Numbered from the stretch's first letter, positions 1,634-43,801 are shown. The stretch is DNA of 64,000 nt from Christensenella sp. UBA4636 (GCA_002405915.1 DHMS01000033.1:114895-178894); one strand, 5' to 3'. Notes: generated by a model not told the origin, from the letters alone. A program made the numbers and translations.

Positions 1634-3460
1634 ATGGACATCAGAGAAGACGTAAGAAACATTGCGATTATTGCACACGTCGACCACGGCAAGACGACGC
1701 TCGTTGACGCGCTTTTAAAGCAGAGCCACACATTTAGAGCCAACGAAGCGGTTGCCGAACGCGTTATGGACAGCAACGACATAGAACGCGAAAGAGGAAT
1801 AACCATTCTCGCAAAAAACACGTCCGTGCATTATAAGGGCGTGAAAATCAACATTATAGACACCCCGGGTCACGCCGACTTCGGCGGAGAAGTCGAACGC
1901 ATACTTTCTATGGTAGACGGCGTTCTTCTCCTCGTTGACGCGGTCGAAGGCTGCATGCCGCAGACGAGATTCGTACTCAAAAAAGCGTTGAACCTCAACA
2001 AAAAGCCTATCGTCGTAATAAACAAGATAGACAAGGGCGGCGACGTTAAGCAAACGCTCGACGGCATTTGCGACCTGTTTTTAGACCTCGGCGCAAACGA
2101 CGACCAGCTTGACTTCAAGACCGTTTACGCTTCGGCAAAACAAGGCTGGGCGGTAACCGATTTGAACGACGAAAGAAAGGACATAACGCCTATCTTCGAC
2201 ACTATTATTTCGGAAATCCCCGCGCCGAGCGGCGAGATAAACGCGCCTCTTCAACTTATGATTTGCAATATCGACTACGACGAATACGTCGGAAGGATAG
2301 GCGTAGGCAAGATTATTCGCGGCAAAATTTCGGCTAACCAGCCCATTTCCATCTGCCGCACGGACGGCACCGTGGCGCAAGGCAAAATTTCAAGGCTTTA
2401 TCAATTTGAAGGCTTAAAACGCGTAGAAGTAACCGAAGGCAAAATGGGCGATATCGTGGCGATTAACGGCGCGGAAAAGCTCAATATCGGCGAAACCGTA
2501 TGCGATTTGAATAGTCCGGAAGCCCTCCCCTTCGTCGCTATCGACGAACCCACCATGTCGATGATGTTCATGGTAAACAACTCGCCGTTCGCGGGGAAAG
2601 AAGGTAAGTTCGTCACCTCTCGTCACTTGCGCGCAAGGCTTTTTAAGGAAGTGGAAACAAACGTTTCGATGCGCGTACATGAAACGGAATCGGCGGATAC
2701 CTTCGAAGTGTTCGGCAGAGGAGAACTTCACCTCTCCATTCTCATCGAAAACATGCGCCGCGAGGGTTACGAATTCCAGGTTTCCCGCCCGAAAGTTATC
2801 TTTAAAGAGATAAACGGCAGATGCCACGAACCTATGGAGGACCTCGTTATCGAAGTGCCGGAAGAGTACGTCGGCGCGGTTATGAATAAAATGGGTCAAC
2901 GCAAAGGCGAGCTTGTGAACATGAGCTTGAACCAAAGCGGAGAAACCAAACTCGAATTCAAAATCCCCTCCCGTTGCTTGTTCGGGTACAGAAGCGAACT
3001 TTTGACCGACACCAAAGGCTTCGGCATAATGAGCCACGTTTTCACGGGCTACGAAGAGTATAAAGGCGATATTCCCGAAAGATTGAGAGGAAGCTTAGTC
3101 GCATTCGAAGCGGGCGTTACGACCCAGTACGGGCTGTTTAACGCGCAAGAACGTTGCACACTCTTTTTAGGACCGGGCGTTCCCGTTTACGAGGGAATGA
3201 TTATCGGCGAAAACTCGCGCGAGGACGACCTCGTTGTAAACGTTTGCAAAACCAAGCACTTGACGAACAACCGCGCAAGCGGCAGCGACGAAGCGTTGAA
3301 GCTCGTTCCGCCCACCACGCTTAGTTTGGAACAGTGCATGGAATTCATCGCAGACGACGAACTCGTTGAACTTACGCCTAAGTCAATAAGGCTCAGAAAG
3401 AAAATCTTGTCCAAAGAACTCCGTATGAAGGAATGGGCTAAGGCGAGGAACAGAGGCTAA
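1634..3460 (+). CDS. typA: Translational GTPase TypA/BipA
   Basis: ORF 1607..3460. The likely start is ATG 1634, preceded by GGAG. The protein begins [28 protein letters not shown] (G1) and has [14 protein letters not shown] (G3) and NKIDK (G4). Its length and EF-G-like domain order are typical of TypA. Confidence 0.95.
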
Positions 3461-3464
3461 AAGT

Positions 3465-3567
3465 AAATCCGCAAGCGGATTTGTGGTGTTTGCCGTTGGC
3501 AAGTGGTGCTTCGCCTTGCGGCGAATGATGTTGCGACTTCGTCGCAGTGATGGTTGCCTATCGGCAA
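3465..3567. repeat. Array of five short GC-rich stem-loops separated by GTGGTG-like spacers
   Basis: The five hairpins are AAATCCG-CAAG-CGGATTT (3465-3482), TTGCC-GTT-GGCAA (3490-3502), TTCGCC-TTGC-GGCGAA (3510-3525), TGCGAC-TTC-GTCGCA (3531-3546) and TTGCC-TATC-GGCAA (3554-3567). The spacers are GTGGTGT, GTGGTGC, TGATG and GTGATGG. Confidence 0.5.
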
Positions 3568-3603
3568 GTTAAGGATAAAATTATTTATAAAATATAAAAA
3601 GTT

Positions 3604-3640
3604 AACCTCCCGGTGAGTTTTCCTCGGGAGGTCTGTTTTG
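3604..3640. terminator. Bidirectional intrinsic terminator between convergent typA and the 271-aa gene
   Basis: Stem AACCTCCCG / CGGGAGGT with a 12-nt loop. It is followed by CTGTTTTGCCTTTTT on the plus strand and by a T-rich run (TAACTTTTTATATTTT) on the minus strand. Confidence 0.7.
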
Positions 3641-3655
3641 CCTTTTTATGCTATT

Positions 3656-4471
3656 TTACGCTAAGGATAGGTAGCTTCTTAAGAAGGAATAGCCGCTGTT
3701 TAGACTTGCGGCGGCGGAGCGGTAAAATTTGGCAAGGTTGCTTATTTGCTCGCTTATCTCCGACGTAACCTCACGGGAAGCGCGGGAAACGTCGTCGTCG
3801 AGCATGTCGCAAAAGTTTTCGGCGGCAAGAGAAACGTCCGCGCTCGAATTGCTCGTTCTTTGCGCGTAATCCGAAATTCTTGACGCGCCTTGAAGCAAAA
3901 CGCCGATATCCGTTACGCTTAGTCGTGCGCCGAAATAATAGCTTTCGCCGAGAGAAAGTGCTTTCATCGCCTCGTTTACGTAATTATATGCGCGTGAAAC
4001 CTTTCCCGAAAACTCGTTTATAGCTTGGTTTGCGGAATTTAACGTTTTTACAACCGAATTGTATGCGCTCGTTATTGCGGAAAGCGCGGAATTGTAAGTA
4101 GAAATATTGTTCATCGTTTGGCTCAAAAGTCTGTTTAGGGACTTTCTTTCGTTATCGATGCTATTTAACACTGAACGGTCTATACGCGGCGCAGTGGTGC
4201 CTTGCGATTGTGCGGCTTGGTCGGCTTTCGCTTGGCGTTTTTCGATATCAGCCTCGTTTGCTTTATAGAGAATATCAAGAACGATTAAGTCGTTATCGAT
4301 ATTGATTTTTGACTCTTCAAGGTTGTGAATAGCCGTTTGCAAGCGGTCGGAAACGTTGCCGAAAACCTCTCCTAAAACGCTTATATTATAGTCGATATCG
4401 TCCGAAAGGCGGTGCAAACCGTCTTGAAAATCACGGATTTCATCAAGGGAAACGTTAACCGTATTGCTCAT
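3656..4471 (-). CDS. Helical hypothetical protein, last gene of the WXG100/FtsK-ATPase operon (possible secreted substrate, LXG-like N-terminus at best)
   Basis: 271-aa ORF whose start is 3 nt after the upstream gene's stop. It begins MSNTVNVSLDEIRDFQDGLHRLSDDIDYNISVLGEVFGN. It looks all-helical, with no TM segment and no recognisable enzymatic motif. Confidence 0.35.
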   Translation of the reverse strand: MSNTVNVSLDEIRDFQDGLHRLSDDIDYNISVLGEVFGNVSDRLQTAIHNLEESKINIDNDLIVLDILYKANEADIEKRQAKADQAAQSQGTTAPRIDRSVLNSIDNERKSLNRLLSQTMNNISTYNSALSAITSAYNSVVKTLNSANQAINEFSGKVSRAYNYVNEAMKALSLGESYYFGARLSVTDIGVLLQGASRISDYAQRTSNSSADVSLAAENFCDMLDDDVSRASREVTSEISEQISNLAKFYRSAAASLNSGYSFLRSYLSLA

Positions 4472-4473
4472 AA

Positions 4474-4740
4474 TTACACTTTATATTTCCTTTCGAATTC
4501 AAATTCACGCGATTCGTAAACCTCTTCTTCGCCGCTTATCGCGTCAAGTTTTTTTACGTTTGCAAAAAAGCCGTCTTGCGCGTAGCCGAGACCATGCGTT
4601 ACGTCCTTTACCGCTTGTAAGAAATTTTCGCCGACCCTATCGTTCCAAGAGTACGTGACGGTTTTGTCAAGCTCGTTCAAATAAACGGTGCCGCCGGGAA
4701 AAGATTGGGAAGCGGGTAGTTCAAAAACCTTCATTATCAC
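4474..4740 (-). CDS. Small hypothetical protein (88 aa) in the WXG100 operon
   Basis: The ORF overlaps the upstream WXG100 gene by 4 nt (4737-4740), which suggests translational coupling. I recognise no motif, and it does not look YukD/EsaB-like by eye. Confidence 0.5.
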   Translation of the reverse strand: MIMKVFELPASQSFPGGTVYLNELDKTVTYSWNDRVGENFLQAVKDVTHGLGYAQDGFFANVKKLDAISGEEEVYESREFEFERKYKV

Positions 4741-5039
4741 TCACCCGATTCTCTGAGCGTTGCGAGCGCGTCCGCAAACTGCGCGGAAATGTCGTCAAGC
4801 TCGCGTTTTAAGTTGTCGCCGCGCTTTAAGGCTTCGCCCATTTTTTCCGTTTCGAGAGCCATTTTCTTTTTAAAGCTATCGTAAGCTGCGCCCGACCAAG
4901 AAGAGCCGAGAGCCGATACGATTTCGTTTATTCCGTTAGTTTTGTCGCCCATATCGCGAACGTAATCGCCGAGCTTTGTGGAAAAGCCCTTAACTATTTG
5001 GTCTAATTCTTCTATCTGTGCGCGAATTTCCGAACTCAT
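4737..5039 (-). CDS. WXG100-family protein (EsxA-like)
   Basis: 100 aa, predicted helix-turn-helix hairpin with a central W-x-G: ALGSSWSGAAYDSFKKKM. Its ATG shares one nucleotide with the upstream stop (TAATG). Confidence 0.8.
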   Translation of the reverse strand: MSSEIRAQIEELDQIVKGFSTKLGDYVRDMGDKTNGINEIVSALGSSWSGAAYDSFKKKMALETEKMGEALKRGDNLKRELDDISAQFADALATLRESGE

Positions 5040-5329
5040 TATATTTTCCCTCCCATTTTTCTGGCACGAGCTTCAATCGCTTCCATTTTGTCAATTCCTT
5101 CGCCCGCTTTTTGACCGGCTTCTTCCACTATCTTTTTAGAACGCTTGATAATTTCAAGAATTTCTTCGATTATCGCGAGAGCCTCGCGGGACGTATCGTC
5201 TTGAATGGATTGAGCGAACGAAGCCGCTTCCGTTTTAAAGGTTTGGGTTTTCCGCTCCATCTCTTCAAGAGTCTTTAAGGCTTCGTTTACGCTTTCGCGC
5301 GACTGCCCCGTTTGCATTTTATACGCCAT
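5039..5329 (-). CDS. Small helical protein, possible WXG100 partner lacking the WXG motif
   Basis: 96 aa with two long predicted helices (MAYKMQTGQSRESVNEALKTLEEMERKTQTFKTEAASFAQSIQ...). It sits directly upstream of, and is coupled to, the WXG100 gene. Confidence 0.45.
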   Translation of the reverse strand: MAYKMQTGQSRESVNEALKTLEEMERKTQTFKTEAASFAQSIQDDTSREALAIIEEILEIIKRSKKIVEEAGQKAGEGIDKMEAIEARARKMGGKI

Positions 5330-5351
5330 CTTTTTACCTCTTTATATTGTT

Positions 5352-7022
5352 TTATTTTTTGTTGCCGTAAACGCTTTGCGTTACGCCGTTTGCTTCTTTA
5401 AATTTTTTGAGGATTGACGAAGCGAAAACTTTTGCTTCGTTCCCGTCCGCATGCGGAACCGTGAATAACGTTGCCGGTTTGCCGTTGCCTTTTACCGCGG
5501 CTACGCCTAAGGGAGATTGGTCTACCGATTGCAAAACCGATTTATCTTCGACGTTTTTTTCGCCGCCGCAAAATCCGTAATTTAGGCAACCTTTTAAGCA
5601 TATGCTTACGACTTCTCTGCCGCAAGAACGTAACATTCTTGCAAATTCGCCATTATAATCCGCGTCGCTGCTTAACGCGAAAGAAATGCCTAACGGTTTT
5701 GATACCCTCAAAAATTCGCAAAATCTTTCAATCGTCGGATTGTAAAGCCAAAGGATATCTTTTAATAGCGCAAAATTTTTCAACAAATCGTCCAAAACGA
5801 AGAAAGTTACGGGTAAAGGTTCATTTGCGGTCGCATTGTATTTTGCGATATCGGAAACGCCGCTTACCGCAAAAAGCCTTTTTCGCCTTTCGATTTCGTC
5901 TTCTATATGCGACAAAAATTCGATTAGTCCGTTGCCCCTTTCCGCATACATTATTCCCGTGACTTGCGGAACGTAAAGCGAAGATTTGCTTTCGTCAAAG
6001 CACAAAAAGTCGTCGCAATTGTCCGCGGTATCGCCGATAAAAAAGTTGACCTTTTTAGGAGAATAAACGGCGGAAGCAGACAAAACAAGCGATTTTAAGA
6101 AGTTAGTTTTGCCCGTGCCTGCACTCCCTCGAACGATAATGAGCGGAGCGTTTTCCGCACTAACCGTGACGGAATAGGTTTTTCCGTTAGCCTTAACGCC
6201 GAGCGGAAAGCAAAGCTTATCGCCGCCTTTTCGGCTATCTTCCTTTTCGAAAGTTTCAAGCGTTTTCAATAAAGAAAGCTCTTTTGCGGCTACGCTTACA
6301 CTGCTTTTCGGTTCTGTGCAAACGGGGCGCGGGTCCTTGGCGGGTAGAATAGTCGGTTTGTGTACTTCTTTCGTTTCGGGTGCTTTTTTAGTTTGCTTTT
6401 CGCCCTTTTTCTGTTCTTCTTCCTCGTAGGAAGCGAGCATTGCGTCAAGGTCGTCGTCTGTGAATTCTTCAAATTCGTCGACGGGTTTTACGTCCTCGGG
6501 CGGATTGGAAACGGTCGGTTTAGCGGGAGATGACAAAAAGTCTTGCAAACTCTTTTTTGTTTCTTCATCAAGGTCGTCGGGAATTTCCAAAGAGTCAGAT
6601 TCGAGCATGGCGAAAAACGCGTCGCGGGTTTTTGCGCTCTGTTCGCGTTCGGCTTTTTCGCTTTCTCTACGCTTTTTCCGCTCTTCCTCTTTTTTCCACG
6701 CTTCTATTTTTTTGCCGTCTTCGAGCATTTTTTTGTCGAATTCTTCAAAGGCGCGTTCGAGGTCGAGTTCCTCTTTGGCTTTCGGGTCGGTTTTTGCATG
6801 TTCTTCAAGGTCCGCGCGTTTTCTCTTTTCCGCTTCGTCCTTTTCGTCAAGCTCTTTTAAAAACTTACGCCATTCGGCTTCGTCTCGCTTAGACTTCTTT
6901 TTCGGCGGATTTTTTGCAAGTCCATCCGCTGTCTCAGCGGCTTTTTTTGAAGAACCGCCCATTACGCTGTCAAACGAAATATCTGAAATACCCGAAAAAA
7001 TATCGTCTTTTTTACCGCTCAT
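5352..7022 (-). CDS. FtsK/SpoIIIE-like single-P-loop ATPase with ~230-aa K/E-rich disordered N-terminus
   Basis: 556-aa ORF. It has a Walker A (IIVRGSAGTGKTNFLKSLV) and a Walker-B-like motif (PVTFFVLDDLL). The N-terminal third is low-complexity K/E/D-rich, and no TM segment is visible. Its start is 3 nt after the stop of the 1146-aa ATPase. Confidence 0.65.
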   Translation of the reverse strand: MSGKKDDIFSGISDISFDSVMGGSSKKAAETADGLAKNPPKKKSKRDEAEWRKFLKELDEKDEAEKRKRADLEEHAKTDPKAKEELDLERAFEEFDKKMLEDGKKIEAWKKEEERKKRRESEKAEREQSAKTRDAFFAMLESDSLEIPDDLDEETKKSLQDFLSSPAKPTVSNPPEDVKPVDEFEEFTDDDLDAMLASYEEEEQKKGEKQTKKAPETKEVHKPTILPAKDPRPVCTEPKSSVSVAAKELSLLKTLETFEKEDSRKGGDKLCFPLGVKANGKTYSVTVSAENAPLIIVRGSAGTGKTNFLKSLVLSASAVYSPKKVNFFIGDTADNCDDFLCFDESKSSLYVPQVTGIMYAERGNGLIEFLSHIEDEIERRKRLFAVSGVSDIAKYNATANEPLPVTFFVLDDLLKNFALLKDILWLYNPTIERFCEFLRVSKPLGISFALSSDADYNGEFARMLRSCGREVVSICLKGCLNYGFCGGEKNVEDKSVLQSVDQSPLGVAAVKGNGKPATLFTVPHADGNEAKVFASSILKKFKEANGVTQSVYGNKK

Positions 7023-7024
7023 GT

Positions 7025-10000
7025 TTAGCCTCTCTTAGCCTTTAAAGCTTTCCACCATTCGGCGTTGTTTTCTATCGAATAATCGAAGAGCCTCGTGCGA
7101 GTACTGCTCAGATTGTCGTAAACGCAAGTTTCGTCCACTCGCGCGCCCTCTATCGACTTATTTTCCGTTATAGCTTTCAAAACGTCGTAGGAATCGTAAA
7201 TATAACGCTGGGATGAGCGAGCGTTTTCACCTCCGCCGCATACCGCCTTTAACTGCGAAAGTTTTTCATGGGCTAATATAACGAAAACACAATAACCGCT
7301 GCCGTTTTCGTACAAATCGGAAACGATTGCTTTAAGGTCGGAAACATAATATGTTTTGTTGTCTTCGACGGGCTTTTCTGCCTTAGGCTGTATTGTCGAA
7401 CCGCCCGCACGAACGCGTGAAAGCATCGCAAGCGCGCCGCCTTTAAGCGAAACTCCGCTATCCGCAAGCTCCTTTTCGGTTGCCGACGTATCGACGGGTT
7501 TTGCGGGCGTATCCGCCGATTTGTTTGCGGCGGAAGTTGTTTTTTTGCCGCCTATCGCGCCGCTTGAAAGAAGCCATTCAACGTCGTGAATAACGAGGTA
7601 TACGGGCTTAAATTGCGCCTTATTGTCTAAGCTCTTTTCTTCGCGACGTTTTTCCAAAAGTTCTTTAAGCCTTGTAAGTTCGCGCGCGATTTTAAGGTGT
7701 TCTTTATCGTCGCATACGTTGACGAATTTAGAAACGAAGTCTTTCTCGCGCCCGAAGCCGTCGATAAATTCCTTACCGTCGGCGGGACCCGCGGCGTAAA
7801 TAAATTCGCCGTCGTTAAACTTTTCTATATACGAAAGCGTAAACGAACGTTCAAGTTCGAAAAGCTTGCTTTCTCGCGCAAGCGCGCAATAGCCCGAGGC
7901 GTTTCTGTCCTCGGCAAAGCTCAGCGATACGCCTATCGTATTCGAAGCCGACGCGCCTATCGGCAAATAGTATTTGCCCTCTTTATAAGCTACCGCTTTA
8001 TAGTCGGAAATCGGGAATAAATCGTCGTTGCCGGCTTCCGCCTGAACTATCTTGCAAGCAGGGTTATTTTTATACTTTTCGCGTATTCTTTCGGCAACGT
8101 CTTTCATGTCCCGCGAAGTGGTTTCGCCTGCGTAAGCAACTTTAACAAGGTTAGTTATATCACCGTTGTTACTTCCTATCGATATGAGAGCCGTGCCTAT
8201 TTTTTTAAGCTTTTCCGAATATTCTCCGGCTTTTATGGAATTGAGCTTGAAATAAGAGTTGAATACCGACGGATTGTTTACTTTTAAAGACAGTTTTGAG
8301 CCTATCTGTTCCGTTGCTCCGCACCCGATTAACGGGTCGGCGGTCTGTCCGCAGAAAAGTATTTCTATGCCGTAGCTTCTCGCTCTTTTCAGAACGGAAT
8401 CAAGCTTATTGCCGAGCTTGCTTATAGTCGCAAAGTTCGCCCCGGAACCGAACATGTTGTTGTACTCGTCGATTATAAAGAGCGCAATCGGGAGCTTTTT
8501 ATACTTGCCGGACAAAACCGCTTGGCTTTTGTTGAACGCTCGGATATCCGAACAGCCCGATTTACTCTCCGACATTATTTTTGCGCGTTCGTCTATCATA
8601 AAATCCATTTTATTGAGCAAGTCCATCGCGCTCTCTTCTCTGCAACGAAGAGAAAGATAAACGACATGCGGCAAATACATAGGGTTACCCTTTTTGTAGT
8701 TTGCAAAAGCGGGAGACGTTTCGCCGCTCTTGAAGTCGACGAGGTACATTTGCAACTCGTCGGGCGCGTAATTGTATGCCGCGGACATTATAAACGTGTG
8801 CAAAAACGCCGATTTACCCGACCCCGTCATACCGACCAAAAGCCCGAAAACATTAGTGGAGCAAGTCTTTAAAACGTAATCGTAACGAACGCCCGAAGAA
8901 ATACCGAGAGGAATTCGCAATGCGTCGTTATAATCTTCGACGGGCTTCAACGCAAAATCCTTGTCCGACATTTCAAGCAGCTTTTTTAGCGAAAGTGAAT
9001 CCGAAGCTTTGTTTTCCTTGGAAAGATAGTCGAGGTAATCGTTTATTTTGAAATTTTCAGCCATTATATCTACGGAAACAGGCTCGCCGTTATATAAAAC
9101 GCCGTCCTCCGTAACATCGATAACATCGCAAGAGATTTTTTTGCCCTTATCGTCTTCGAGCTTAAAATCGCTGTTCTTGTCGATACAGATCAGCGAAAGC
9201 ACGCCCTTGGCGGGTCCCGTTTCCAAGACATTTAAAAAAGTCTTTTTCTGTTCGGAGGTAAAGCGTTCGCCGAAACAGTCGGGCGCATAGTTATATGCAG
9301 CTAAAACGAAATCATGCTTGGCGTCGGGAGTGTTGTCATTATATTCGTAAATGTTCGCATAGTCGTTACCCTTATATGTTTTGGAACGACCGCGGATAAG
9401 GGTTATCAAGGCTTCGTTAAAAGAAATCGTTCCGGACGAGCTTGAAGCGATGTCCTTATCGAAAATATAATTTTCGCCAAGCTTTGCTTTAACTCTGTCG
9501 GCAACCGCGCCGATAACCGCCTCCACAGCCGTTTCCGCGCCTCCTAAGCGCAGGTTTTTGAGACCTAACGAGGAGAGAAGAGAAAGGTAAATTTTGCGAA
9601 TCAGGTCGAAAGCGTCGCCGCCATCCGCTTCGAAATAATCCCTGTCGGCACGTATAACGATAACCCCGTTTCTTGTTTTGGGTTTGAAGAATACGGGAAC
9701 GCCGGATAGTGCTTTTTCGGGAACGCCGAGCGTTTTGACGGCAAAATCTAACGCTTCTTTATTTATATCCGATTTTTTAAAGCCGATAAGGAAGCGGTAG
9801 TCCGTTTCTTCGTCCGATAAGGGCTTGCCGATAAGCATAGTGCTTGCCTTTTCGTTGTCGGTGAGAATTTGAGTTTTTAAAGCTTCTAATTCCTTATAGC
9901 AGGAGAGGTTTTCAAGCTTTGTGTTCTTTTTGAAGTTAATTTCTAAGTCGGCTTTCTTTTTGTCGACTTCCGCCAAAGCTTCTTCGCGCTTTCTTTCTTC

Positions 10001-10465
10001 ATAGCCCGTTTCGGATAAAAGACGGCGCGCAGACATAACGACGTAGCGTAAGTCGGTCAAGCACTGACAAAAGCGTTTTTGCGGCGCGATATCGTCCTCT
10101 ACCGTTTTGCTTTCGTCAACCGCCATGATAGCGGCTCTCCCCTCCTCGACGAGCCTGTCGACGTATTCGAACACGCCGCCCTTAGGTACGGGGCGGGGAG
10201 AAAGACGTTTTATGTACTCTCCGACGGTAAACGTAACGCCCTTGGTGCGGCGTTGAACGCTATCCCAGTCGGCGAAAATTTCTTCGAGGGCGGAAAGCGA
10301 AACGCGGTAAGTGTCGACGTATTCTTTCACATAGTCGGTCGCTTTAATCTCCTTTTCCTCATCGGCAAGCTTTTTCATCGCCGCGTCGAATTTGTCTTGT
10401 TTTTTCTTGATTTCGGAAGCGTAAACTAAATGCAAACGCTCCGTTTCTCTTATTATATCGGACAT
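7025..10465 (-). CDS. EssC/EccC-like multi-domain FtsK/SpoIIIE-family ATPase, apparently soluble
   Basis: 1146-aa ORF. There is one canonical P-loop (NVFGLLVGMTGSGKSAFLHTFIMSAAYNYAPDELQMYLVDFKSGE) with a Walker B (LPIALFIIDEYNNMF). It is flanked by degenerate domains: the AAYNYAPDCFGERF duplicate upstream, and KPVYLVIHDVEWLL downstream. I see no hydrophobic TM stretch and no FHA-like N-terminus. Confidence 0.75.
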   Translation of the reverse strand: MSDIIRETERLHLVYASEIKKKQDKFDAAMKKLADEEKEIKATDYVKEYVDTYRVSLSALEEIFADWDSVQRRTKGVTFTVGEYIKRLSPRPVPKGGVFEYVDRLVEEGRAAIMAVDESKTVEDDIAPQKRFCQCLTDLRYVVMSARRLLSETGYEERKREEALAEVDKKKADLEINFKKNTKLENLSCYKELEALKTQILTDNEKASTMLIGKPLSDEETDYRFLIGFKKSDINKEALDFAVKTLGVPEKALSGVPVFFKPKTRNGVIVIRADRDYFEADGGDAFDLIRKIYLSLLSSLGLKNLRLGGAETAVEAVIGAVADRVKAKLGENYIFDKDIASSSSGTISFNEALITLIRGRSKTYKGNDYANIYEYNDNTPDAKHDFVLAAYNYAPDCFGERFTSEQKKTFLNVLETGPAKGVLSLICIDKNSDFKLEDDKGKKISCDVIDVTEDGVLYNGEPVSVDIMAENFKINDYLDYLSKENKASDSLSLKKLLEMSDKDFALKPVEDYNDALRIPLGISSGVRYDYVLKTCSTNVFGLLVGMTGSGKSAFLHTFIMSAAYNYAPDELQMYLVDFKSGETSPAFANYKKGNPMYLPHVVYLSLRCREESAMDLLNKMDFMIDERAKIMSESKSGCSDIRAFNKSQAVLSGKYKKLPIALFIIDEYNNMFGSGANFATISKLGNKLDSVLKRARSYGIEILFCGQTADPLIGCGATEQIGSKLSLKVNNPSVFNSYFKLNSIKAGEYSEKLKKIGTALISIGSNNGDITNLVKVAYAGETTSRDMKDVAERIREKYKNNPACKIVQAEAGNDDLFPISDYKAVAYKEGKYYLPIGASASNTIGVSLSFAEDRNASGYCALARESKLFELERSFTLSYIEKFNDGEFIYAAGPADGKEFIDGFGREKDFVSKFVNVCDDKEHLKIARELTRLKELLEKRREEKSLDNKAQFKPVYLVIHDVEWLLSSGAIGGKKTTSAANKSADTPAKPVDTSATEKELADSGVSLKGGALAMLSRVRAGGSTIQPKAEKPVEDNKTYYVSDLKAIVSDLYENGSGYCVFVILAHEKLSQLKAVCGGGENARSSQRYIYDSYDVLKAITENKSIEGARVDETCVYDNLSSTRTRLFDYSIENNAEWWKALKAKRG

Positions 10466-10480
10466 AAGTTCACCGTAAAA

Positions 10481-12898
10481 TTATTTTAGTATCGAAATAA
10501 GTTGTTTTGCCGCTCTTAAAATTTCAGTAGCTTCCGTATACGCTTTTACATGAACAATCGATTGATAGATACCGACCGCGAAAGCGACGACCAAGAAGAT
10601 TGCGCCTATAACAGCCACGGGAGCGGTTATACCGTCGTCGATATCGTTAATAACGAAACAGGCGGCTATCAACATAAGTACCGCGTTGATAAGCGCGGCG
10701 GCGTTCAAGAACACCATGTACCCCGGGAAGTTTACACTCCCGACAATTCCCATAACGCCGAAGCCTAAAACAATTATGATATGCAAAAAAACAAGTATAA
10801 CGCTATCGCTTCCTTCGACGTTGTAGTTTTCGAATTTGTGTATGCAAACGAGAACGAAATGCGGAACGAATGCGACAAGGCACGGGAAGCCTATAACCAT
10901 TCCGCGAGTCCAACCCGCTTCAAAAAAGCCTAAACCGACGGCAATCGCCGTTACGACGACCGAAACGCCGAGCATAAGCGAAGAACTGCAAACAGTTTCC
11001 TCCTCGGAGAAAATCGCGCCGAAAAGATATGCTGAGAACGCAGCCGCGCCGAAAGCGACGGCAAGATACGCGTATTCGCCGCCTAAAGCCGAAAAAATAA
11101 TCGAAGCGATGATTAAAAACGGGTTGACGGCATGCAAAACCGCCAAAACGGCAACGTTTTTGCCGCCGTTGCCTACTTTACATTCGAACAAAAACCACAT
11201 TACGCCGTAAGCGACAACGCAAGCCGCGCTCACGAGCGGCAAACGGAGATTAGGCACGAATACCGAAACGCCTATCGCGATAACAAGCAACAGTACGGCG
11301 GCAAGTATCGGCAAGGTTACGGGCAAACGCTTTTTGCGATTGTAAGCTTTTATACGTTTTATTTCCGCTTGTCTTTGTTTTCTCGCCTCGCGGGCTTCCT
11401 TTTCTTCGCGCTCTTTCTTCATTTTTTCTATAGCTTTGTCGTTAATATCGCAAGCTTCTTTATAAGCCGCTTCCAACGCGCTTATTTTATTTTCGGAAAT
11501 AAGCTTCTTTTCGGCGGAAGTAAGGCTATGATAAACGCGCATTACGTCCGTAGTTTTACCGTTTTTGTCTGCTTTAAACGCCGGCAAAACCTCGTCGATT
11601 TTCGCTTCTTTTTCGGCGGCGGATTGTTTTACCGCCTCTTGATTTTTGATATAACGCTCCGCTTCGGTTTTTAAGCTTTTAACCTTATCCTTATCTAAGT
11701 ACGGCAAAACGCGCGCGGGAACGGAAGCGAAAAAGCTTTCCGCTTCATAATATTTTGCGTGTCTGTTTTGACAAGAAGTTATAAACGCGTCTAACTTTTT
11801 ATTGTAATCGATAATTTCCTTTTGAAGTTTTTCTTCGGCTGCCTTTTTCTCTGCGGCTTGGCGGCGAAGTTCTTTTTGTCTGTCCTCTTCCGCCTTAATG
11901 CCGTCCTTAGCGATTTTCAAAAGCTTATTGAGCTTTTGCGACTCTTTAAGATACGGGCGGACGGAATCGGTTATCGTCTTTTCGAACTTCAAAACGGCGT
12001 TATAATCGGCGTTGCCGCGTTCGAAGTCGTCCGAAAAAGCAAGGATTTTTTCGTCGATCGTGTAAGCTAAGGAAACCTTTTTGGCAATAACGGCAAGCTC
12101 GTCGAGAACGGCGAGATTTTTGCACCTCGAACGAATTTTAAGTTCAAGATTTTTTACGAGATTTTGGGCGTTTTTAACGTCCTCGCACCAATAAACGCCT
12201 TTGGGAGCTTTGCTCAAATCGAAGATAAGCTTGTCGATATCCGCGGCGGAATCGGCAATACGCTTTTCTTCCTTTTCTTTCGCGGCACGCTCCGCTTCCG
12301 CCTTTTTTATGGCGGCTAAGCGTTCTTCTTCCGCTTTTTTAGCGGCGGCTTGGCGTTTGGCTTCTTCCTCGGCGGCTTTCTTTGCGGCGGCTTTGTCCGC
12401 GATATCTTTTTCGATGATTTTTACGGCTTCCGCCTTTATTACGTTAATTTTCGTAGCGTTTTTAATAGATTTTATAATATCGGCGTTTTGTTTTTCTTCC
12501 TTTTCTACAACCTTTAAAGCGCGCTCCGCCCACGCAACCGAACGGGGTTCTTTATCTAACGCCGCTATGCGTTCGTCAAGCTCGTCAATGCGCTTTTTTA
12601 ACGCCGCTTCGTCGTCTTGCTTCTTTTTTTCGATTATGTAATTTGCCTTTTCTTTGATTTCTTTAAGGCGCGAAGCGTTGAGAGATAGGTCGAAAATATC
12701 GGAATTGAGCCGCGTTTCCTCTTCTACGAAAGGAAGAGCCGCTTTTGCCCATTCGATATCTTGTTTTCTCTTTAAAAATTCCGCGACGCGCGCGTCAAGC
12801 TGTTCGGCTCGTTCTCTTTTCGTCGCCTCGTCGCCGACCTTTTTGTACTTTGCGGGATCGCCGGAATTAAGCCCGCCGAATAAGTTGTTGCCTGCCAT
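10481..12898 (-). CDS. Large membrane protein: N-terminal repeated helical modules plus a C-terminal ~10-TM domain; first gene of the WXG100 operon
   Basis: The ORF track gives 10481..13006. I prefer ATG 12898 (MAGNNLFGG...), which has GAGGAG 12 nt upstream, because ATG 13006 has no SD. The C-terminal ~280 aa are a run of hydrophobic helices (LPILAAVLLLVIAIGVSVFV ... AVIGAIFLVVAFAVGIY). Confidence 0.6.
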   Translation of the reverse strand: MAGNNLFGGLNSGDPAKYKKVGDEATKRERAEQLDARVAEFLKRKQDIEWAKAALPFVEEETRLNSDIFDLSLNASRLKEIKEKANYIIEKKKQDDEAALKKRIDELDERIAALDKEPRSVAWAERALKVVEKEEKQNADIIKSIKNATKINVIKAEAVKIIEKDIADKAAAKKAAEEEAKRQAAAKKAEEERLAAIKKAEAERAAKEKEEKRIADSAADIDKLIFDLSKAPKGVYWCEDVKNAQNLVKNLELKIRSRCKNLAVLDELAVIAKKVSLAYTIDEKILAFSDDFERGNADYNAVLKFEKTITDSVRPYLKESQKLNKLLKIAKDGIKAEEDRQKELRRQAAEKKAAEEKLQKEIIDYNKKLDAFITSCQNRHAKYYEAESFFASVPARVLPYLDKDKVKSLKTEAERYIKNQEAVKQSAAEKEAKIDEVLPAFKADKNGKTTDVMRVYHSLTSAEKKLISENKISALEAAYKEACDINDKAIEKMKKEREEKEAREARKQRQAEIKRIKAYNRKKRLPVTLPILAAVLLLVIAIGVSVFVPNLRLPLVSAACVVAYGVMWFLFECKVGNGGKNVAVLAVLHAVNPFLIIASIIFSALGGEYAYLAVAFGAAAFSAYLFGAIFSEEETVCSSSLMLGVSVVVTAIAVGLGFFEAGWTRGMVIGFPCLVAFVPHFVLVCIHKFENYNVEGSDSVILVFLHIIIVLGFGVMGIVGSVNFPGYMVFLNAAALINAVLMLIAACFVINDIDDGITAPVAVIGAIFLVVAFAVGIYQSIVHVKAYTEATEILRAAKQLISILK

Positions 12899-13021
12899 GT
12901 TTTTGCTTTGCTCCTCGAATATAATATTCTTGATTTGTCGTTTGTAGTTACGCGCGCCGAAAACGGAGAAAGTTTTTCCTACGTTATATTCGCACGCAAA
13001 ACGCATTGTTTTTATTATATA

Positions 13022-13050
13022 ATTTTACAAAACGAGTTGCGTTTTGTCAA
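13022..13050 (-). promoter_or_regulatory. Sigma-A-type promoter for the WXG100/ATPase operon
   Basis: The minus strand reads TTGACA (13050-13045), 17-nt spacer, TAAAAT (13027-13022). Confidence 0.5.
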
Positions 13051-13052
13051 GT

Positions 13053-13106
13053 CCAAAACAGCACGAAAGACAGCCTTTCTTAAAAAATCTTAAAAAGCTG
13101 TCTTTC
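13053..13106 (-). terminator. Putative terminator after ftsZ
   Basis: 10-bp stem GAAAGACAGC (13065-13074) / GCTGTCTTTC (13097-13106) with a 22-nt loop. On the minus strand it is followed by GTGCTGTTTTGG. Confidence 0.4.
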
Positions 13107-13165
13107 GATGATTGATTCCGTTTCATACCGCCGATTATGCGAACGCTAAGAAACGAAATCTTTAT

Positions 13166-14704
13166 TTACTTTTTGAAAAGCTTTCTCACGAATGCGGGAA
13201 GTCCGCCTTTTTTCTGCTCTTCTCTGGGCTGCTCCTCTTGCGGCTGCGCGCCGTAAGGATAGCCGTCGTCATAAGAATGGTCGTCGTAACCTCTTCTCGC
13301 TCTGTCGTCAGGTTGTCTATAATCGTCCCTGCCGTATTCGCCGTAAGCGTTGCGCGCCGCGCCGGTAGTTACAACGCGTTCGTCGCCGTAAGGTCTGCGC
13401 GGTTGTTCTCTATCGTACTGCGGTCTTTCGGCGTAATCCTCGTCGCGCTTACCGTAAGGTCTTGCGGCGTACGGGTCCCTCGCGTAGCCGTCGCGCTTTT
13501 GGTCGTACGCGGACTGCTCGGGAGAAGCGTAGCGGGAACGCGGAGCTTCCTCCTCTTCGCCGTAACCTCTTGCATAAGGGGTCTGGGTCTGCTGCGGACG
13601 AGCGGTATCTCTTTCATAAGGAGAACGAACGTAAGACGGCTTAGCTTCTTCTTGCGGTTCTTCAACCTTTTTTTCGGGTTCGGGACGAGCCGAGAAAAGG
13701 TTCTTGTACGCTCTCGAAGCGTCGGATGAAGAATCGTCGGAACTTCTGTCGAAGCCGGTCGCTATCATCGTGATGATGACTTCTTCCTGCAAAGCTTCGT
13801 TTATGTTCATGCCGAAAATAATGTTTGCGGACGGGTCGACGATGCCTTTAATGCTGTGCGCCGCTTCGTCAACTTGTTTGAGCGTTAAGTCTTTGCCGCC
13901 CGTGACGTTCAAAATAACGCCCTTTGCGCCCTCGATGGTTGTTTCAAGGAGCGGCGAAGAAATGGCTTCTCTTACCGCTTCGAGTATTCTGTTTTCGCCC
14001 TTGGCTCTACCCACGCCCATGTGCGCAAGACCCTGGTTTTTGATTATCGCGGAAACGTCGGCAAAGTCAAGGTTGATAAGCGACGGGGTGGCGATAAGGT
14101 CGGCAATGCCGCAAATGCCCTGGCGGAGCGTGTCGTCCGCGTATTTTAACGCTTCAATCATTGGCGTGTCGGGTTTTAACGCTTCGAGAAGTTTGTCGTT
14201 CGGGATAATAATCATCGTATCGACGTACTTTTCAAGGTTGGCGATACCCTTTTTGGCGTTGATTTCGCGCTTGCCGCCTTCGAACATGAACGGCTTGGTG
14301 ACGACAGCAACCGTTACGCAACCTTTTTCTTTTGCGACTTTGGCAATGACGGGGGAAGCGCCCGTGCCGGTGCCGCCGCCCATACCCGCGGCGATAAACA
14401 AAAGGTCTACGCCGTCGACTATCTGTTCGATAAGTTCTCTGCTTTCTTCGGCGGCTTTTTCGCCGATTTCCGGGTTTGCGCCCGCGCCTAAGCCCTTGGT
14501 TTCTTCCGCGCCTATCTGGTAGCGGTTTTCGGGCGGGCATTTTGAAAGCATGAGCGCCTGCTTGTCCGTGTTGATAGCTACGAATTCGGCGGTGTGTACG
14601 CCTTGGTCTATCATTCTGTTGACGGCGTTGTTGCCCGCGCCGCCTACGCCGATTACCATAATTTTGGCAACCGACGACGCTTGATCGTATTCTTCGTTAA
14701 ACAT
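13166..14704 (-). CDS. ftsZ: Cell-division GTPase FtsZ (512-aa product from the internal SD/ATG) with a long R/Y/D/P-rich C-terminal linker
   Basis: The minus strand reads AGGAGGAAATATATG at 14704. The product begins [31 protein letters not shown], carries the GGGTGTG tubulin signature ([14 protein letters not shown]) and ends with an FtsA-binding-type peptide, [13 protein letters not shown]. Confidence 0.92.
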
Positions 14705-16948
14705 ATATTTCCTCCTGACGGATTGCTTTTTTTGTTGCTCTTTATAGAGTCTTTCTTCTTCGGTTTCCGATTCTTCGGGAATTTCTTCTCGGGTTTCTTC
14801 TTTTTCCTCGTACGGCGTTGTAGCTTGTTGCGTTTGCGCCTGCGTTTGCTCGAATTTTATCGTTTGCGGCTCTTCCTCTTGAATTGTCTGCGGCACCGCT
14901 TTGATTGCTTGTTCTGCCGTCTGCTCCGCAGTTTGATCTTCGAAAGGCTCTTGCGGCTGCACGGGTTGCGGCTCTTCCGTCGCCGTTTGTTGCGGCGGTT
15001 CGGGTTGCGGTTCTTCTATTTGAATTTCGGGTTCCGCTTGCGCTTCGACTTCTTCAATTGTTTGTTCCGCTTGCGGTTCGTCAAAGACCGTTAAAAACTC
15101 GTCCTCGTCCGACTGCTTTTCGGTTGTTTCCGAAATAACGTCGTCGAAAATGCTTTTCGCTTCCTCTTCGTCGTCAACTTGTTCCGTCTGCTCGGTTACC
15201 TCATCTATCGGCGCAACCTCTTCGGGTTCGGCTTCTATAATAGGCTCCGTAACGGGTTCCGCTTGTTCGACGGATTCAACTTTTTCATCGACGGGTTCGG
15301 GAATTATTTTTTCTACCGTCGCGGTTTCGGGTTCAACTTCGGTCGTTTCTTTAATTTCGGTCGCCGTTACCTCTTCCGTTTGAGTTTCAACTTCTGTAGG
15401 GCTTTCTTCAACGGTTTCCGCTTGCGGTTCATCCTCTTCCGCCTTTGCGGGAGTCGTGAAAAAGTCGCTTATTTCGCCCGAATTTTCCGTTTCTGCCGCG
15501 CCGAACAAAGCTTCTTCGAAAGAAATTTGTCCTTTAACGGGCGCAAATTCGTCCTCTTCGTCGGCTGTTTCTTCGGCTTGTTCGCTTTCCGCGGTTTCTT
15601 GCGCCGTTTCTTCAATCTCCGTTGCTTCTTCGGCTTGTTCTACCTTTTCGACTTCATCTTCGATTTTTTCTATTTCTAAGGTAGATTGTTCCACCTCTTC
15701 GATAGTTTCTTCTTCGACGGGCTTTTCTTCCGCTGTTTCGGGTTCGTTTACCTCGGGTTCTTCGGCAACTTCCGTTTCGTCCTCAGAGACTTCTTCGTCG
15801 GAAGCTAAGTCGGAGGCTAAGTCGGGCGGGAGCGCGCATGTTGCGTCGGCTATTCGCTCGACTTCTTCAATCGTTTTGATTTCTTCGTCCTCGGCTTCCT
15901 TTATAGGCTCGTCCGCCTTTTCTATGGCTGCGGCGGGACTTTCCGAAACGGTTAAGTTGCCCGACGAATATTCTTCTTCGTTAGTCGCTTCGATTTGTAT
16001 TCCTTGCGGCTCGGCTTCTTCAAGCTCTTTGGGTTCTTCTGAAAGTTCTTCCGTTTCGACCTCTTCTGTTTCCTCTTCGGTTTCGGTTTGTTCTTCTACC
16101 TCTTCGCCGTCGATTTTTTCAGCCGTTTCTTCGTCGATATTTTCTTCGGCTTCGTCGGCTGCTTCGTCGATTTCGGGTTCGCCGTCTTTTTCGGTTTCTT
16201 CTATCTCGTCGGAAATTTCAAGTTTTTCCTCTTCGACGGGCAAATCTTCTGCGGGTTCTTCTTCCGCTTCTTCTTGCTCGTCCGAAACTTCCGCTTCTGC
16301 GGGTTCTTCAACTTCTTCGGGTTCGGTTTCTTCCGCCGTTTTCTCGATAGTCGCGGTTTCTTCCGCCGTTTCGGCTTTCAAATCTTCTTCTAAGTCCGGT
16401 TCGAAGTTAACGCTTTCTTTCCATTTTTCAAAGGTTTTTTCTTCCTCTTCCGTTTCCTCTTCCGTTTCGTCGTCATCTATTGGCACGTAAGAGCTTAAAA
16501 AATCCTCGTCCGGTTCGAAGTCCACCTTGGAGCGGTCGAAAACGAAAGGCTTTTTTTCTTCGGCTTCGCCGATTTCGGGTTCGCCGTCTTTTTCGGTTTC
16601 TTCTATCTCGTCGGAAATTTCAAGTCTTTCCTCTTCTTCGGGCAAGTCCTCTTCGATTTCTTCCGCCGTTTCTTCGTCGGTTACATCTTCGGAAGTTTTT
16701 TCCGTTTCTTTCGCGGCTTCATCGTCCAAAGTTTCTTCAACCTCTTCGGGAGCGGTTGTAAGTTCTTTTTCGGTTTCTACCTCTGCGGGCGTTTCTACTT
16801 TTACTTCTTCCGTTTCGGCTTCCTCGGAGAATTTGCCCGTTTGCTCGTTTATTTCGAAAAACGTTACGGGAATAGGCTTAGGAGTAACGGAAAATCCTCC
16901 GCCCCGCGTTTTTATTTTATTTTTTTTCTTCTTTTTTTCTTTGTACAT
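14705..16948 (-). CDS. In-frame, stop-free upstream extension of ftsZ: 748 codons of hyper-acidic low-complexity sequence (would give a 1260-aa FtsZ isoform)
   Basis: The ORF track shows one uninterrupted frame, 13166..16981. The most plausible start is ATG 16948 ([18 protein letters not shown]), with GGGAGG 5 nt upstream and 59 nt after the ftsA stop. Composition is dominated by E, T, P, A, D and Q. Confidence 0.5.
16169..16636 (-). repeat. Two ~66-nt near-identical in-frame direct repeats inside the acidic extension
   Basis: Copies at 16169-16235 and 16571-16636, 402 nt apart (134 codons). Both encode [18 protein letters not shown]. Confidence 0.85.
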
Positions 16949-17007
16949 TTTTACCTCCCTATTTTTTATTTGCTCGCTCAAAACTTAAAGCGGTATATGC
17001 GTTTTTA

Positions 17008-35121: not shown

Positions 35122-35122
35122 T

Positions 35123-42502: not shown

Positions 42503-42598
42503 TTTGTCTTTACCTCCTTGTTTTTCGGCGTTTTAGCCTCGCTCCCCACCGCATAAAAACGACAAGAAGCGGGGCTATAAGCCGATTATCGACTATTT

Positions 42599-43771: not shown

Positions 43772-43801
43772 AATTTCTTTTACTCCTTAATTTTTATTTT
43801 T

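What the first reader, a model, noticed from the sequence alone, without database searches (positions are those of the whole stretch)
3656..13050. WXG100 + FtsK/SpoIIIE-ATPase operon lacking every canonical T7SSb membrane/accessory component I can recognise, placed directly after ftsZ
Seen in the sequence: seven co-oriented, mostly translationally coupled genes sit behind a TTGACA-17-TAAAAT promoter. In order they are:
- a repeat-plus-polytopic membrane protein;
- a 1146-aa FtsK-like ATPase;
- a 556-aa FtsK-like ATPase;
- a 96-aa helical protein;
- a 100-aa WXG100 protein (SSWSGAAYDSF);
- an 88-aa protein;
- a 271-aa helical protein.

Established knowledge: Firmicutes T7SSb loci pair WXG100 proteins with a membrane-anchored EssC (FHA domains + 2 TM + 3 ATPase domains), and also with EsaA, EssA, EssB and the ubiquitin-like EsaB/YukD.

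By eye none of those partners is present, and the ATPases have no TM segments.

Inference: this is either a divergent T7SS architecture with a new membrane platform, or a different WXG-linked machine.
Basis: partly seen in the sequence, partly recalled or inferred. Interest (0 to 1): 0.75.

Follow-up and report, generated by a model that had tools for sequence, protein, structure and literature searches.

The report
Type VII-like secretion operon, soluble motor
An uncultured gut Clostridia bacterium carries an intact, conserved operon that pairs a WXG100 protein with a type VII secretion-type ATPase lacking any membrane anchor, next to an unfamiliar multi-pass membrane protein; this looks like an undescribed variant of the type VII protein-export machine.

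Summary
Seven co-oriented, tightly packed genes on the minus strand (12898..3656) lie between a TTGACA-17-TAAAAT promoter and a hairpin terminator, directly after ftsA-ftsZ.

- g5 is a true WXG100 protein.
- g2 and g3 are EccC/EssC-type P-loop ATPases with no transmembrane segment.
- No EssB, EsaA, EssA, YukD or FHA signal was found.
- All seven genes are under purifying selection.
- The core (ATPase plus four small helical proteins) recurs in more than 60 protein clusters (50% identity), all from metagenomes or MAGs and unnamed where names were looked up, in hosts of 27-66% GC.
- The ftsZ position is specific to this lineage, and g3 is accessory.
- g1 really starts at M37 (805 aa). It has cytoplasmic helical repeats plus about 9 TM helices, with no sequence or fold match.
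- g4 is homologous to the C-terminal module of g7.
- In one relative, the g2 ATPase domains and g4-g7 were swapped together while the flanks stayed at background divergence. This resembles essC variant modules and links the motor to these proteins as substrates.

Best reading (about 0.6): a new T7SS-like subtype whose soluble motor is anchored in trans. It differs from T7SSa-j, all of which have a membrane-bound ATPase. Secretion itself is untested.

The parts
13022..13050 (-). Sigma-70-type promoter, TTGACA-17-TAAAAT
   Evidence: Matches 11 of 12 positions, the best match in the scan of 3300..13400. It lies in the 160-nt gap between the ftsZ terminator hairpin and g1.
13065..13106 (-). ftsZ terminator-like hairpin: 10-bp stem GAAAGACAGC/GCTGTCTTTC with an AT-rich loop, followed by GTGCTGTTTT
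   Evidence: Read directly from the sequence. It separates the operon from ftsZ transcription.
10481..12898 (-). g1: 805-aa membrane partner (the ORF is open back to 13006, giving 841 aa). About 520 aa of cytoplasmic helical repeats precede about 9 TM helices.
   Evidence: TM segments were found by hydropathy. AF2 gives helices 528-785, with N-terminal pLDDT about 80-88 and TM-region pLDDT about 50-60. Internal repeats are supported by hhalign. Homologues start at MAGNNLF. No Pfam, NCBIfam, PADLOC, PHROG or Foldseek match was found.
7025..10465 (-). g2: 1146-aa soluble EccC/EssC-type ATPase. Domains: N-terminal helical domain (1-250), degenerate P-loop domain (251-505), catalytic domain (506-790; Walker A GMTGSGKS, Walker B IIDEY), degenerate C-terminal domain (791-1146).
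   Evidence: Pfam and NCBIfam: EccCa 72 bits, EssC 54 bits, FtsK 9 bits. PDB profile: EccC 4nh0 at 1.4e-41 and YukB at 2e-31, against FtsK at 3e-15. Invariant catalytic residues in 35 relatives. Domain self-comparison. No TM segment.
5352..7022 (-). g3: 556-aa accessory soluble ATPase. A K/E-rich, probably disordered N-terminal half is followed by one P-loop domain (Walker A GSAGTGKT; Walker B VLDD, with no catalytic Glu).
   Evidence: Domain hits. Absent from L004, L010, L011, L092, L093, L094 and L096, and split in L008.
5039..5329 (-). g4: 96-aa helical protein with a conserved DDxSxxA motif and a conserved C-terminal tail (..GKI).
   Evidence: Family alignment A3. Homologous to the g7 C-terminal module: hhalign 94.5% probability, E = 8e-8. 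No database match.
4737..5039 (-). g5: 100-aa WXG100 protein (SSWSGAAYDSF).
   Evidence: PF06013 scores 30.5 bits against a cut-off of 27.3. The family profile hits EsxB and EsxA structures. W48 is invariant.
4474..4740 (-). g6: 86/88-aa protein with a conserved W-x-D-x-V-G..F motif and a Y-x-S-R motif.
   Evidence: Alignments A5 and A7. The AF2 model is helical with pLDDT 64. No Pfam or PDB match.
3656..4471 (-). g7: 271-aa all-helical protein. Its C-terminal 60-80 aa form a g4-like module (DDVS motif), and the extreme C-terminus ..GYSxLxxYLSLA is conserved.
   Evidence: Alignment A6. hhalign against g4. Only non-specific coiled-coil hits were found.
3596..3631 (-). Intrinsic terminator-like hairpin CCTCCCG..CGGGAGG followed by a T-run; end of the operon, convergent with bipA.
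   Evidence: Read directly from the sequence.

Best explanation
This is a functional, self-contained type VII-like protein export module of a subtype not described so far.

Proposed mechanism:
- The motor, g2, is an EccC/EssC-type P-loop ATPase. It has lost, or never had, the FHA and transmembrane parts.
- g2 carries a 250-aa N-terminal helical domain, one degenerate P-loop domain, one catalytic P-loop domain and a degenerate C-terminal domain.
- g2 is held at the membrane in trans by g1, the membrane protein encoded immediately upstream. g1 has a cytoplasmic helical-repeat domain plus about 9 TM helices, and it also provides or scaffolds the channel.
- The four small signal-peptide-less helical proteins are the cargo or co-secreted adaptors. 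They probably form two hairpin-type pairs in the manner of EsxA/EsxB or PE/PPE: g5 (WXG) with g4 (DDxS motif plus C-terminal tail), and g6 (W-x-D-x-V-G) with g7 (long helical protein whose C-terminal module is a g4 paralogue).
- The non-catalytic domains of g2 recognise these proteins.
- g3 is a lineage-specific extra nucleotide-binding subunit, analogous to EccCb.

Shown here: gene content, domain homologies, lack of TM segments, conservation, purifying selection, and co-replacement of ATPase domains with g4-g7.

Inferred: hexamer formation, docking to g1, pairing of the small proteins, and export itself.
For: - WXG100 membership of g5.
- g2 and g3 are closest to T7SS ATPases and not to DNA translocases. 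NCBIfam gives EccCa 72 bits against FtsK 9 bits. The PDB profile gives EccC at 1.4e-41 and YukB at 2e-31 against FtsK at 3e-15. The best plasmid hits are annotated eccCa or essC.
- The Walker A G/K, Walker B D-E and other residues are invariant in 35 relatives down to 19% identity.
- A degenerate P-loop domain precedes the active one, as in the EccC DUF/D0 domain.
- The cassette ATPase + ~95 aa + ~100 aa (WXG100) + ~90 aa + ~270-350 aa is conserved in at least 12 distinct loci with different neighbours and 27-66% GC.
- More than 60 clusters (50% identity) contain full-length, TM-less relatives.
- dN/dS is 0.06-0.37 for all seven genes.
- A g1-type partner lies directly upstream in W, L001, L004, L008, L010, L011, L012 and L092, and other membrane proteins lie adjacent in L013, L015, L018 and L094.
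- Window versus L006: the bipA-side flank (g7 3' end onward), g3 and g2 residues 1-250 are about 87-94% identical. In contrast, g2 residues 251-1122 (24-64%) and g4-g7 (45, 41, 26, 27%) were replaced together. This mirrors the S. aureus essC variants, whose variable C-terminal region determines substrate specificity (abstracts of PMC5994694 and PMC4788903, seen).
- g4 and the g7 C-terminal module are homologous.
Against: - No experiment and no cultured host exist, so secretion is untested.
- No toxin or effector domain is recognisable.
- g4, g6 and g7 have no detectable link to known T7SS substrate families. hhalign of g4 against g5 gives only 32% probability, and g6 against g5 gives 3%.
- The membrane partner is not conserved across the wider family, and on one 9-kb contig (L096) no membrane protein is visible.
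- The TM part of the g1 model is low confidence.
- The ubiquitin-like protein found in nearly all T7SS subtypes is missing.
- The rest of the genome could not be searched for canonical ess genes.
Confidence: 0.6

Rival explanations
1. The cassette is an accessory substrate-and-ATPase module. It plugs into a canonical T7SS, or another translocon, encoded elsewhere in the genome, so g1 is not the channel.
For: g2 has no TM segment. The membrane partner varies across the family and is not visible in L096. EccCb-type soluble ATPase subunits exist in T7SSa (established knowledge).
Against: No canonical T7SS component appears in the 64-kb window or in any of about 15 related loci with up to 10-kb flanks. 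A membrane protein is adjacent in 12 of 14 loci where flanks are visible. g2 has its own D0-like and D1 domains, so it is a complete motor and not a C-terminal fragment.
Confidence: 0.13
2. It is a non-secretory cytoplasmic or membrane-associated machine in which an FtsK-like ATPase remodels WXG-like helical proteins. Possible roles are in cell division or sporulation (suggested by ftsZ adjacency) or in phage defence (suggested by variable-island contexts).
For: In this lineage it lies directly after ftsZ. In L004, L011 and L092 the neighbours include HicAB, SIR2, Schlafen/AlbA, RhuM and Fic genes. L094 lies next to spoIIP. The motor is soluble.
Against: The ftsZ position is not conserved beyond close relatives. 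PADLOC gives only generic P-loop hits. The ATPase is specifically EccC/EssC-like, and WXG100 proteins are known only as T7SS substrates or adaptors.
Confidence: 0.14
3. It is a DNA-translocating or conjugation-type apparatus with an FtsK/TraB/TcpA-like pump.
For: The FtsK_SpoIIIE Pfam domain is present in g2 and g3. A polytopic membrane protein lies next to it.
Against: There are no FtsK alpha or gamma domain hits, and the FtsK NCBIfam model scores 8.7 bits against 72 bits for EccCa. No relaxase, VirB4, replication or integration genes occur in any locus. No full-length relatives occur on plasmids or viral contigs. A WXG100 gene is present.
Confidence: 0.05
4. It is a decaying remnant of a T7SSb locus that has lost its membrane components.
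For: Canonical components and the EssC N-terminus are absent.
Against: All ORFs are intact and translationally coupled. dN/dS is 0.06-0.37. Catalytic residues are invariant. The same architecture recurs in more than 60 divergent clusters.
Confidence: 0.03

Closest known systems
T7SSb (Ess/Yuk system of Bacillota: EsxA, EssC/YukB, EssB/YukC, EsaA/YueB, EssA, EsaB/YukD)
   Same: A WXG100 gene lies next to an EccC/EssC-type P-loop ATPase, with small helical signal-less proteins encoded downstream. The host is in Bacillota. The ATPase region co-varies with the downstream small proteins, as in the essC1-4 variants.
   Different: The ATPase has no FHA domains and no TM helices. It has one canonical P-loop instead of several. 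No EssB, EsaA, EssA or YukD was found. The membrane protein is unrelated, with cytoplasmic helical repeats plus about 9 TM helices.
T7SSa (ESX) EccCa/EccCb split ATPase and polytopic EccD
   Same: The best sequence match of the g2 catalytic domain is EccC (T. curvata 4nh0, EccC5). The motor is split into two polypeptides (g2 + g3), as in EccCa/EccCb. A polytopic membrane protein with a large cytoplasmic N-terminal domain is present, reminiscent of the role of EccD. The small proteins may be paired, as in EsxA/EsxB.
   Different: EccCa is itself membrane-anchored. No EccB, EccE or MycP was found. g1 shows no sequence similarity and no significant fold similarity to EccD (Foldseek E = 3.5-6.4). 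No YxxxD/E motif was seen in g4 or g7.
T7SSc-T7SSj (Garrett, Higginson and Palmer 2024, PMC11217815)
   Same: These are bioinformatically defined subtypes in Bacillota and Clostridia, built around TsxA (WXG100) plus TsxC with variable accessory sets. T7SSd also lacks the ubiquitin-like TsxB.
   Different: All ten described subtypes have a membrane-bound TsxC with four NTPase domains. None has a g1-like partner or the g4/g6/g7 families. No kinase, phosphatase or FHA partners occur here.
SftA / FtsK / SpoIIIE DNA translocases
   Same: They share the FtsK_SpoIIIE P-loop fold. SftA is also a soluble member, recruited through its N-terminal domain (own knowledge). In this lineage the operon lies next to division genes.
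   Different: The profile matches to FtsK are far weaker than those to EccC. There are no alpha or gamma domains. The gene partners are WXG100-type proteins.

Membership tests
T7SSb (Ess/Yuk) | WXG100 protein (EsxA) encoded in the locus | tested here: met
   g5 hits PF06013 at 30.5 bits against a cut-off of 27.3. It is below the cut-off for TIGR03930 (27.4 against 44.85). The family profile hits EsxB at 3e-5 and EsxA at 3e-3 in the PDB.
T7SSb (Ess/Yuk) | [quoted passage not shown] | tested here: not met
   The ATPase domain is of EccC/EssC type. However, there is no FHA hit at E<=1, no TM segment in g2 or g3, and no TM segment in nearly all of about 100 relatives of similar length. The score against TIGR03928 is 54 bits against a cut-off of 778.
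T7SSb (Ess/Yuk) | EssB/YukC pseudokinase membrane protein | tested here: not met
   No Pfam or NCBIfam hit in any of the seven proteins at E<=1. None appears in the precomputed Pfam annotation of related loci.
T7SSb (Ess/Yuk) | EsaA/YueB and EssA membrane proteins | tested here: not met
   No hit. g1 has no large extracellular domain between TM helices.
T7SSb and most T7SS subtypes | Ubiquitin-like EsaB/YukD (TsxB), free or fused | tested here: not met
   No YukD Pfam hit. The only candidate by size, g6, is modelled as all-helical, although pLDDT is only 64, so the fold test is weak. Fused beta-grasp domains within g1 or g2 were not excluded structurally for g2.
T7SS in the broad sense (TsxA + TsxC; PMC11217815) | Membrane-bound EccC/EssC orthologue with four NTPase domains | tested here: not met
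   g2 is soluble. It has one canonical domain, one clearly degenerate P-loop domain (hhalign 96%) and one possible degenerate domain (hhalign 21%). g3 adds one more P-loop domain. Homology to the EccC/EssC catalytic domain itself is met.
FtsK/SpoIIIE DNA translocases | Alpha, beta and gamma (KOPS-binding winged-helix) domains, with an N-terminal membrane or septum anchor | tested here: not met
   Only the central P-loop domain matches. No FtsK_alpha or FtsK_gamma hit appears at E<=1. The FtsK equivalog model scores 8.7 bits.
T7SS substrates (LXG, PE/PPE, Lap/DUF3130/DUF3958) | Recognisable LXG, PE, PPE or Lap domain in the longer helical proteins | tested here: not met
   g4, g6 and g7 and their families give no such hit. 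One g7 relative gives a weak WXG100 hit (E = 0.002), and L096 shows a faint precomputed WXG100 hit.
Any protein secretion system | ATPase-dependent export of the candidate substrates | not testable with these tools
   This needs a secretome comparison or a heterologous reconstitution experiment.

The most novel reading that the evidence does not exclude
This may be a separate class of WXG100-linked export machine. In it, a soluble EccC-like motor is recruited in trans to interchangeable membrane adaptors (g1-type repeat-plus-polytopic proteins, LRR_5-bearing proteins, or small 2-4-TM proteins). The polytopic partner, not the ATPase's own helices, would then form the conduit. That architecture has no counterpart among T7SSa-j. 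It is widespread in uncultured gut Clostridia and exports two dedicated helical heterodimers.
Probability: 0.3. Interest if true: 0.85.

Novelty: new variant of a known kind. Interest (0 to 1): 0.66.

Why it matters
Every T7SS model so far places the EccC/EssC transmembrane helices at or around the translocation pore. A conserved, selected system with a TM-less motor would therefore bear directly on which part of a T7SS actually forms the channel and how the motor is coupled to it.

The system has an unrelated polytopic partner and no ubiquitin-like component. It would add an eleventh architecture to the ten catalogued ones. It is found in abundant but uncultured gut Clostridia, where NCBI's annotation of the near-identical proteins calls them 'hypothetical protein'. 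Those organisms may therefore have a competition or host-interaction apparatus that current genome surveys miss.

The natural module swap (window versus L006) also offers a ready-made specificity experiment.

Tried and rejected
- Foldseek of the g1 and g6 models against the PDB found nothing below E = 1. EccD chains appear at E = 3.5-6.4, which is not significant. Both models have low confidence in the relevant parts.
- PADLOC and PHROGs searches of all seven proteins gave only generic FtsK P-loop hits and coiled-coil noise.
- A viral-contig scan found no relatives.
- A plasmid tblastn search found only partial D1 matches to eccCa or essC.
- Profile searches of the g4, g6 and g7 families against the PDB and Pfam returned only designed helical or coiled-coil proteins.
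- hhalign of g4 against g5 (32%), g6 against g5 (3%), g5 against g7 (8%) and g6 against g7 (1%) was not convincing.
- Four literature searches found no description of a TM-less EssC-like system; the closest paper is PMC11217815.
- The idea that the position after ftsZ is functionally meaningful was rejected, because relatives at 62% identity and below sit in unrelated contexts.
- The 841-aa start was rejected in favour of M37.
- The word-index homology search gave only 11 relatives and wrongly suggested a tiny family. The exhaustive profile search corrected this.

Full report
**What is there**

The feature is an operon on the minus strand.
- Upstream, a 10-bp hairpin follows the ftsZ stop codon. 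A TTGACA-17-TAAAAT promoter sits at 13050..13022 (11 of 12 matches).
- Seven genes follow, with gaps of 15, 2, 22, -1, -4 and 2 nt.
- A GC-rich hairpin plus T-run closes the operon at 3631..3596, convergent with bipA.
- Upstream lie ftsA and ftsZ at the end of a dcw cluster.
- The first ORF is open from 13006 (841 aa). A GAGGAG ribosome-binding site precedes M37 at 12898. All homologues, and an identical 805-aa database entry, start at MAGNNLF. I therefore take g1 as 805 aa.

**The individual proteins**

- g5 (100 aa) passes the Pfam WXG100 cut-off (30.5 bits against 27.3). A profile of ten family members finds B. anthracis EsxB (3e-5) and S. aureus EsxA (3e-3) among solved structures. W48 is invariant, but the G is not: some members have WxD.
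- g2 (1146 aa) and g3 (556 aa) carry FtsK_SpoIIIE domains and have no hydrophobic segment.
- Their affinities are with T7SS motors.
  - NCBIfam gives EccCa 72 bits, EssC 54, EccCb 46 and FtsK 8.7.
  - A 35-sequence profile finds T. curvata EccC (1.4e-41), EccC5 and B. subtilis YukB (2e-31), well ahead of FtsK (3e-15).
  - The best plasmid matches are annotated eccCa or essC.
- Across relatives down to 19% identity, the Walker A G545/G550/K551, D577, K579, Walker B D666-E667 and R940 are invariant.
- Sub-domain hhalign shows that residues 251-505 form a degenerate copy of the catalytic domain (96% probability), like the EccC DUF/D0 domain. Residues 791-1146 are at best a very degenerate P-loop domain (21%). 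By eye, ARESKLFE stands in the Walker A position.
- g3 has an intact Walker A but VLDD at Walker B. Its N-terminal half is K/E-rich and of low complexity.
- g1 has about 520 aa of helical repeats: hhalign between 70-aa units gives 97.5, 93 and 88%.
  - A strongly basic stretch follows the repeats, then about 9 TM helices.
  - With no signal peptide and the basic stretch before TM1, the repeat domain should be cytoplasmic (inference).
  - g1 has no hit in Pfam, NCBIfam, PADLOC or PHROGs, and no Foldseek match below E = 1.
  - The TM part of the model is low confidence.
- g4 (96 aa), g6 (86/88 aa) and g7 (271 aa) have no family match.
  - g4 is nevertheless homologous to the C-terminal module of g7 (hhalign 94.5%, E = 8e-8), sharing a DDxSxxA motif.
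  - g7 ends in a conserved ..GYSxLxxYLSLA, with Y267 invariant.
  - g4 ends in a conserved ..GKI.
  - g6 has a conserved W-x-D-x-V-G..F motif, reminiscent of the WXG turn. Its model is helical, not a beta-grasp (pLDDT 64).

**Is it real and functional?**

- The window compared with an 85%-nt relative (L001) gives dN/dS of 0.06-0.37 for all seven genes.
- The word-index search found only 11 relatives. The exhaustive profile search found 170 representatives at E<=1e-30.
  - More than 60 of these align end to end with g2 and are 1120-1210 aa long.
  - Nearly all lack TM segments and have a single Walker A near position 550.
- All come from metagenomes or MAGs. In the clusters where names were looked up, the only NCBI names are 'hypothetical protein [Clostridiales bacterium]'.
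- One relative belongs to the human-gut MAG 'Clostridia bacterium HGM11422'.

**Conserved neighbourhood**

- In at least 12 distinct loci the ATPase is followed by genes of about 95, about 100 (often a weak WXG100 hit), about 85-110 and about 270-360 aa. The hosts range from 27 to 66% GC.
- The location between ftsZ and bipA is seen only in close relatives (L001-3, L008, L012; L006 at least on the bipA side). A 62% relative and all more distant ones sit elsewhere, often in variable regions with toxin-antitoxin or defence-like genes.
- g3 is present only in the close clade and is split in L008.
- A g1-type protein, recognisable by its N-terminal repeat module, lies immediately upstream in W, L001 (two tandem paralogues), L004, L008, L010, L011, L012 and L092. 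In some of these it is fused to LRR_5.
- Other membrane proteins occupy that place in L013, L015 and L018, or lie downstream in L094.
- L095 and L096, both short contigs, show no membrane protein.
- No locus and no other part of the window shows EssB, EsaA, EssA, YukD or FHA (and the precomputed Pfam columns).

**A natural experiment**

L006 differs from the window by about 13% at the nucleotide level across the g7 3' end, bipA and beyond, and across g3. Two segments, however, have been replaced by strongly divergent versions:
- g2 codons ~268-1122, at 24-64% amino-acid identity per 50-residue window, lowest in the C-terminal domain;
- g4-g7, at 45, 41, 26 and 27% identity.

By contrast, g2 residues 1-250 are 90-98% identical and g3 is 80-100% identical. 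This is the pattern known for S. aureus essC variants, where the variable C-terminal ATPase region goes with different downstream substrates and determines specificity (abstracts of PMC5994694 and PMC4788903, seen). It argues that the g2 ATPase region and g4-g7 form one functional unit.

**Mechanism proposed**

- g2 hexamerises like EccC/EssC (inferred).
- It is docked by its N-terminal domain to the cytoplasmic repeat domain of g1, which supplies the membrane part (inferred from adjacency and co-conservation).
- The pairs g5+g4 and g6+g7 form helical-hairpin complexes. Their conserved C-terminal tails are read by the degenerate domains of g2 (inferred from homology and from the module swap).
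- ATP hydrolysis in D1 drives export.
- g3 acts as an extra nucleotide-binding subunit, in the way EccCb does.
- The biological role is open, because no toxin domain is visible. Interbacterial or host interaction is plausible by analogy and given the recurrent LRR_5 partners.

**Comparison with known systems**

Garrett et al. 2024 (PMC11217815) define T7SSa-j. All have a membrane-bound ATPase with four NTPase domains, and all but T7SSd have a ubiquitin-like protein.

This cassette fails those features and the T7SSb-specific ones. It shares only the WXG100 protein and the EccC-type catalytic domain. I therefore classify it as working like a T7SS and as a new variant of that kind, not as a member of any described subtype. 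Four literature searches found no prior description, although the library is incomplete.

**Limits**

- There is no experimental evidence.
- The structure models are only medium to low confidence.
- Whole genomes of carriers could not be searched.
- The pairing and docking steps are inferences.

Noticed in passing
window 13166..16981 (-): The ftsZ ORF is 1271 aa. The Tubulin/FtsZ GTPase domain begins only at residue 773, and FtsZ_C spans 984-1078. A Glu-rich, repeat-containing N-terminal extension of about 760 aa starts about 60 nt after the ftsA stop codon. It is kept as one ORF in relatives (1186 aa in L001, 1162 aa in L008). An N-terminal extension of this size on FtsZ is unusual.
   Followed up: partly
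window 9663..7099 and 5330..3685, compared with L006:1265-3823 and 5603-7326: Mosaic structure: within about 87% nucleotide background identity, the g2 ATPase domains and g4-g7 are replaced by divergent alleles, while the g2 N-terminal domain and g3 are conserved. Why g3, which lies between the two swapped segments, stays conserved is unexplained.
   Followed up: yes
L001:4782-9985, L008:4802-9996: Close relatives carry two tandem paralogues of the membrane protein (804 and 924-927 aa, about 54% identical to each other's counterparts), where the window and L012 have one.
   Followed up: partly
L011:1753-5571, L092:3337-5544, L015:301-1527, L018:6092-7210, L096:7049-8332: LRR_5 (BspA-like leucine-rich repeat) domains recur fused to, or next to, the membrane partner of the cassette. 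In two cases there is no signal peptide, so their cellular side is unclear. LRR_5 was called by Pfam for L011, L092 and L096 only; for L015 and L018 it was judged by eye.
   Followed up: no
window 40518..48260 (-): A block of phage head and packaging genes is present: large terminase 46845-48260, portal 44495-46375, major head protein 42599-43771 and a virion structural protein 40518-41960. This is a prophage or a remnant of one.
   Followed up: partly
window 34177..35761 (-): An AbiEii-family nucleotidyltransferase toxin (34177-35121) has an upstream 212-aa partner gene (35123-35761). This is probably a type IV toxin-antitoxin or abortive-infection pair.
   Followed up: no
L007:8693-14065: An unrelated GC-rich metagenome contig shows a minimal conventional arrangement: WXG100 + 242 aa + 79 aa + a 1354-aa FtsK-like ATPase that does have two TM helices. 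It is a useful contrast to the TM-less family.
   Followed up: no
proteins P0055, P0067, P0073-P0077, P0084-P0087: Giant relatives of 2300-3075 aa carry 5-8 Walker A motifs, some with two N-terminal TM helices. They turned up among more distant hits of the g2 profile and appear to be multi-P-loop EssC-like proteins of unknown context.
   Followed up: no
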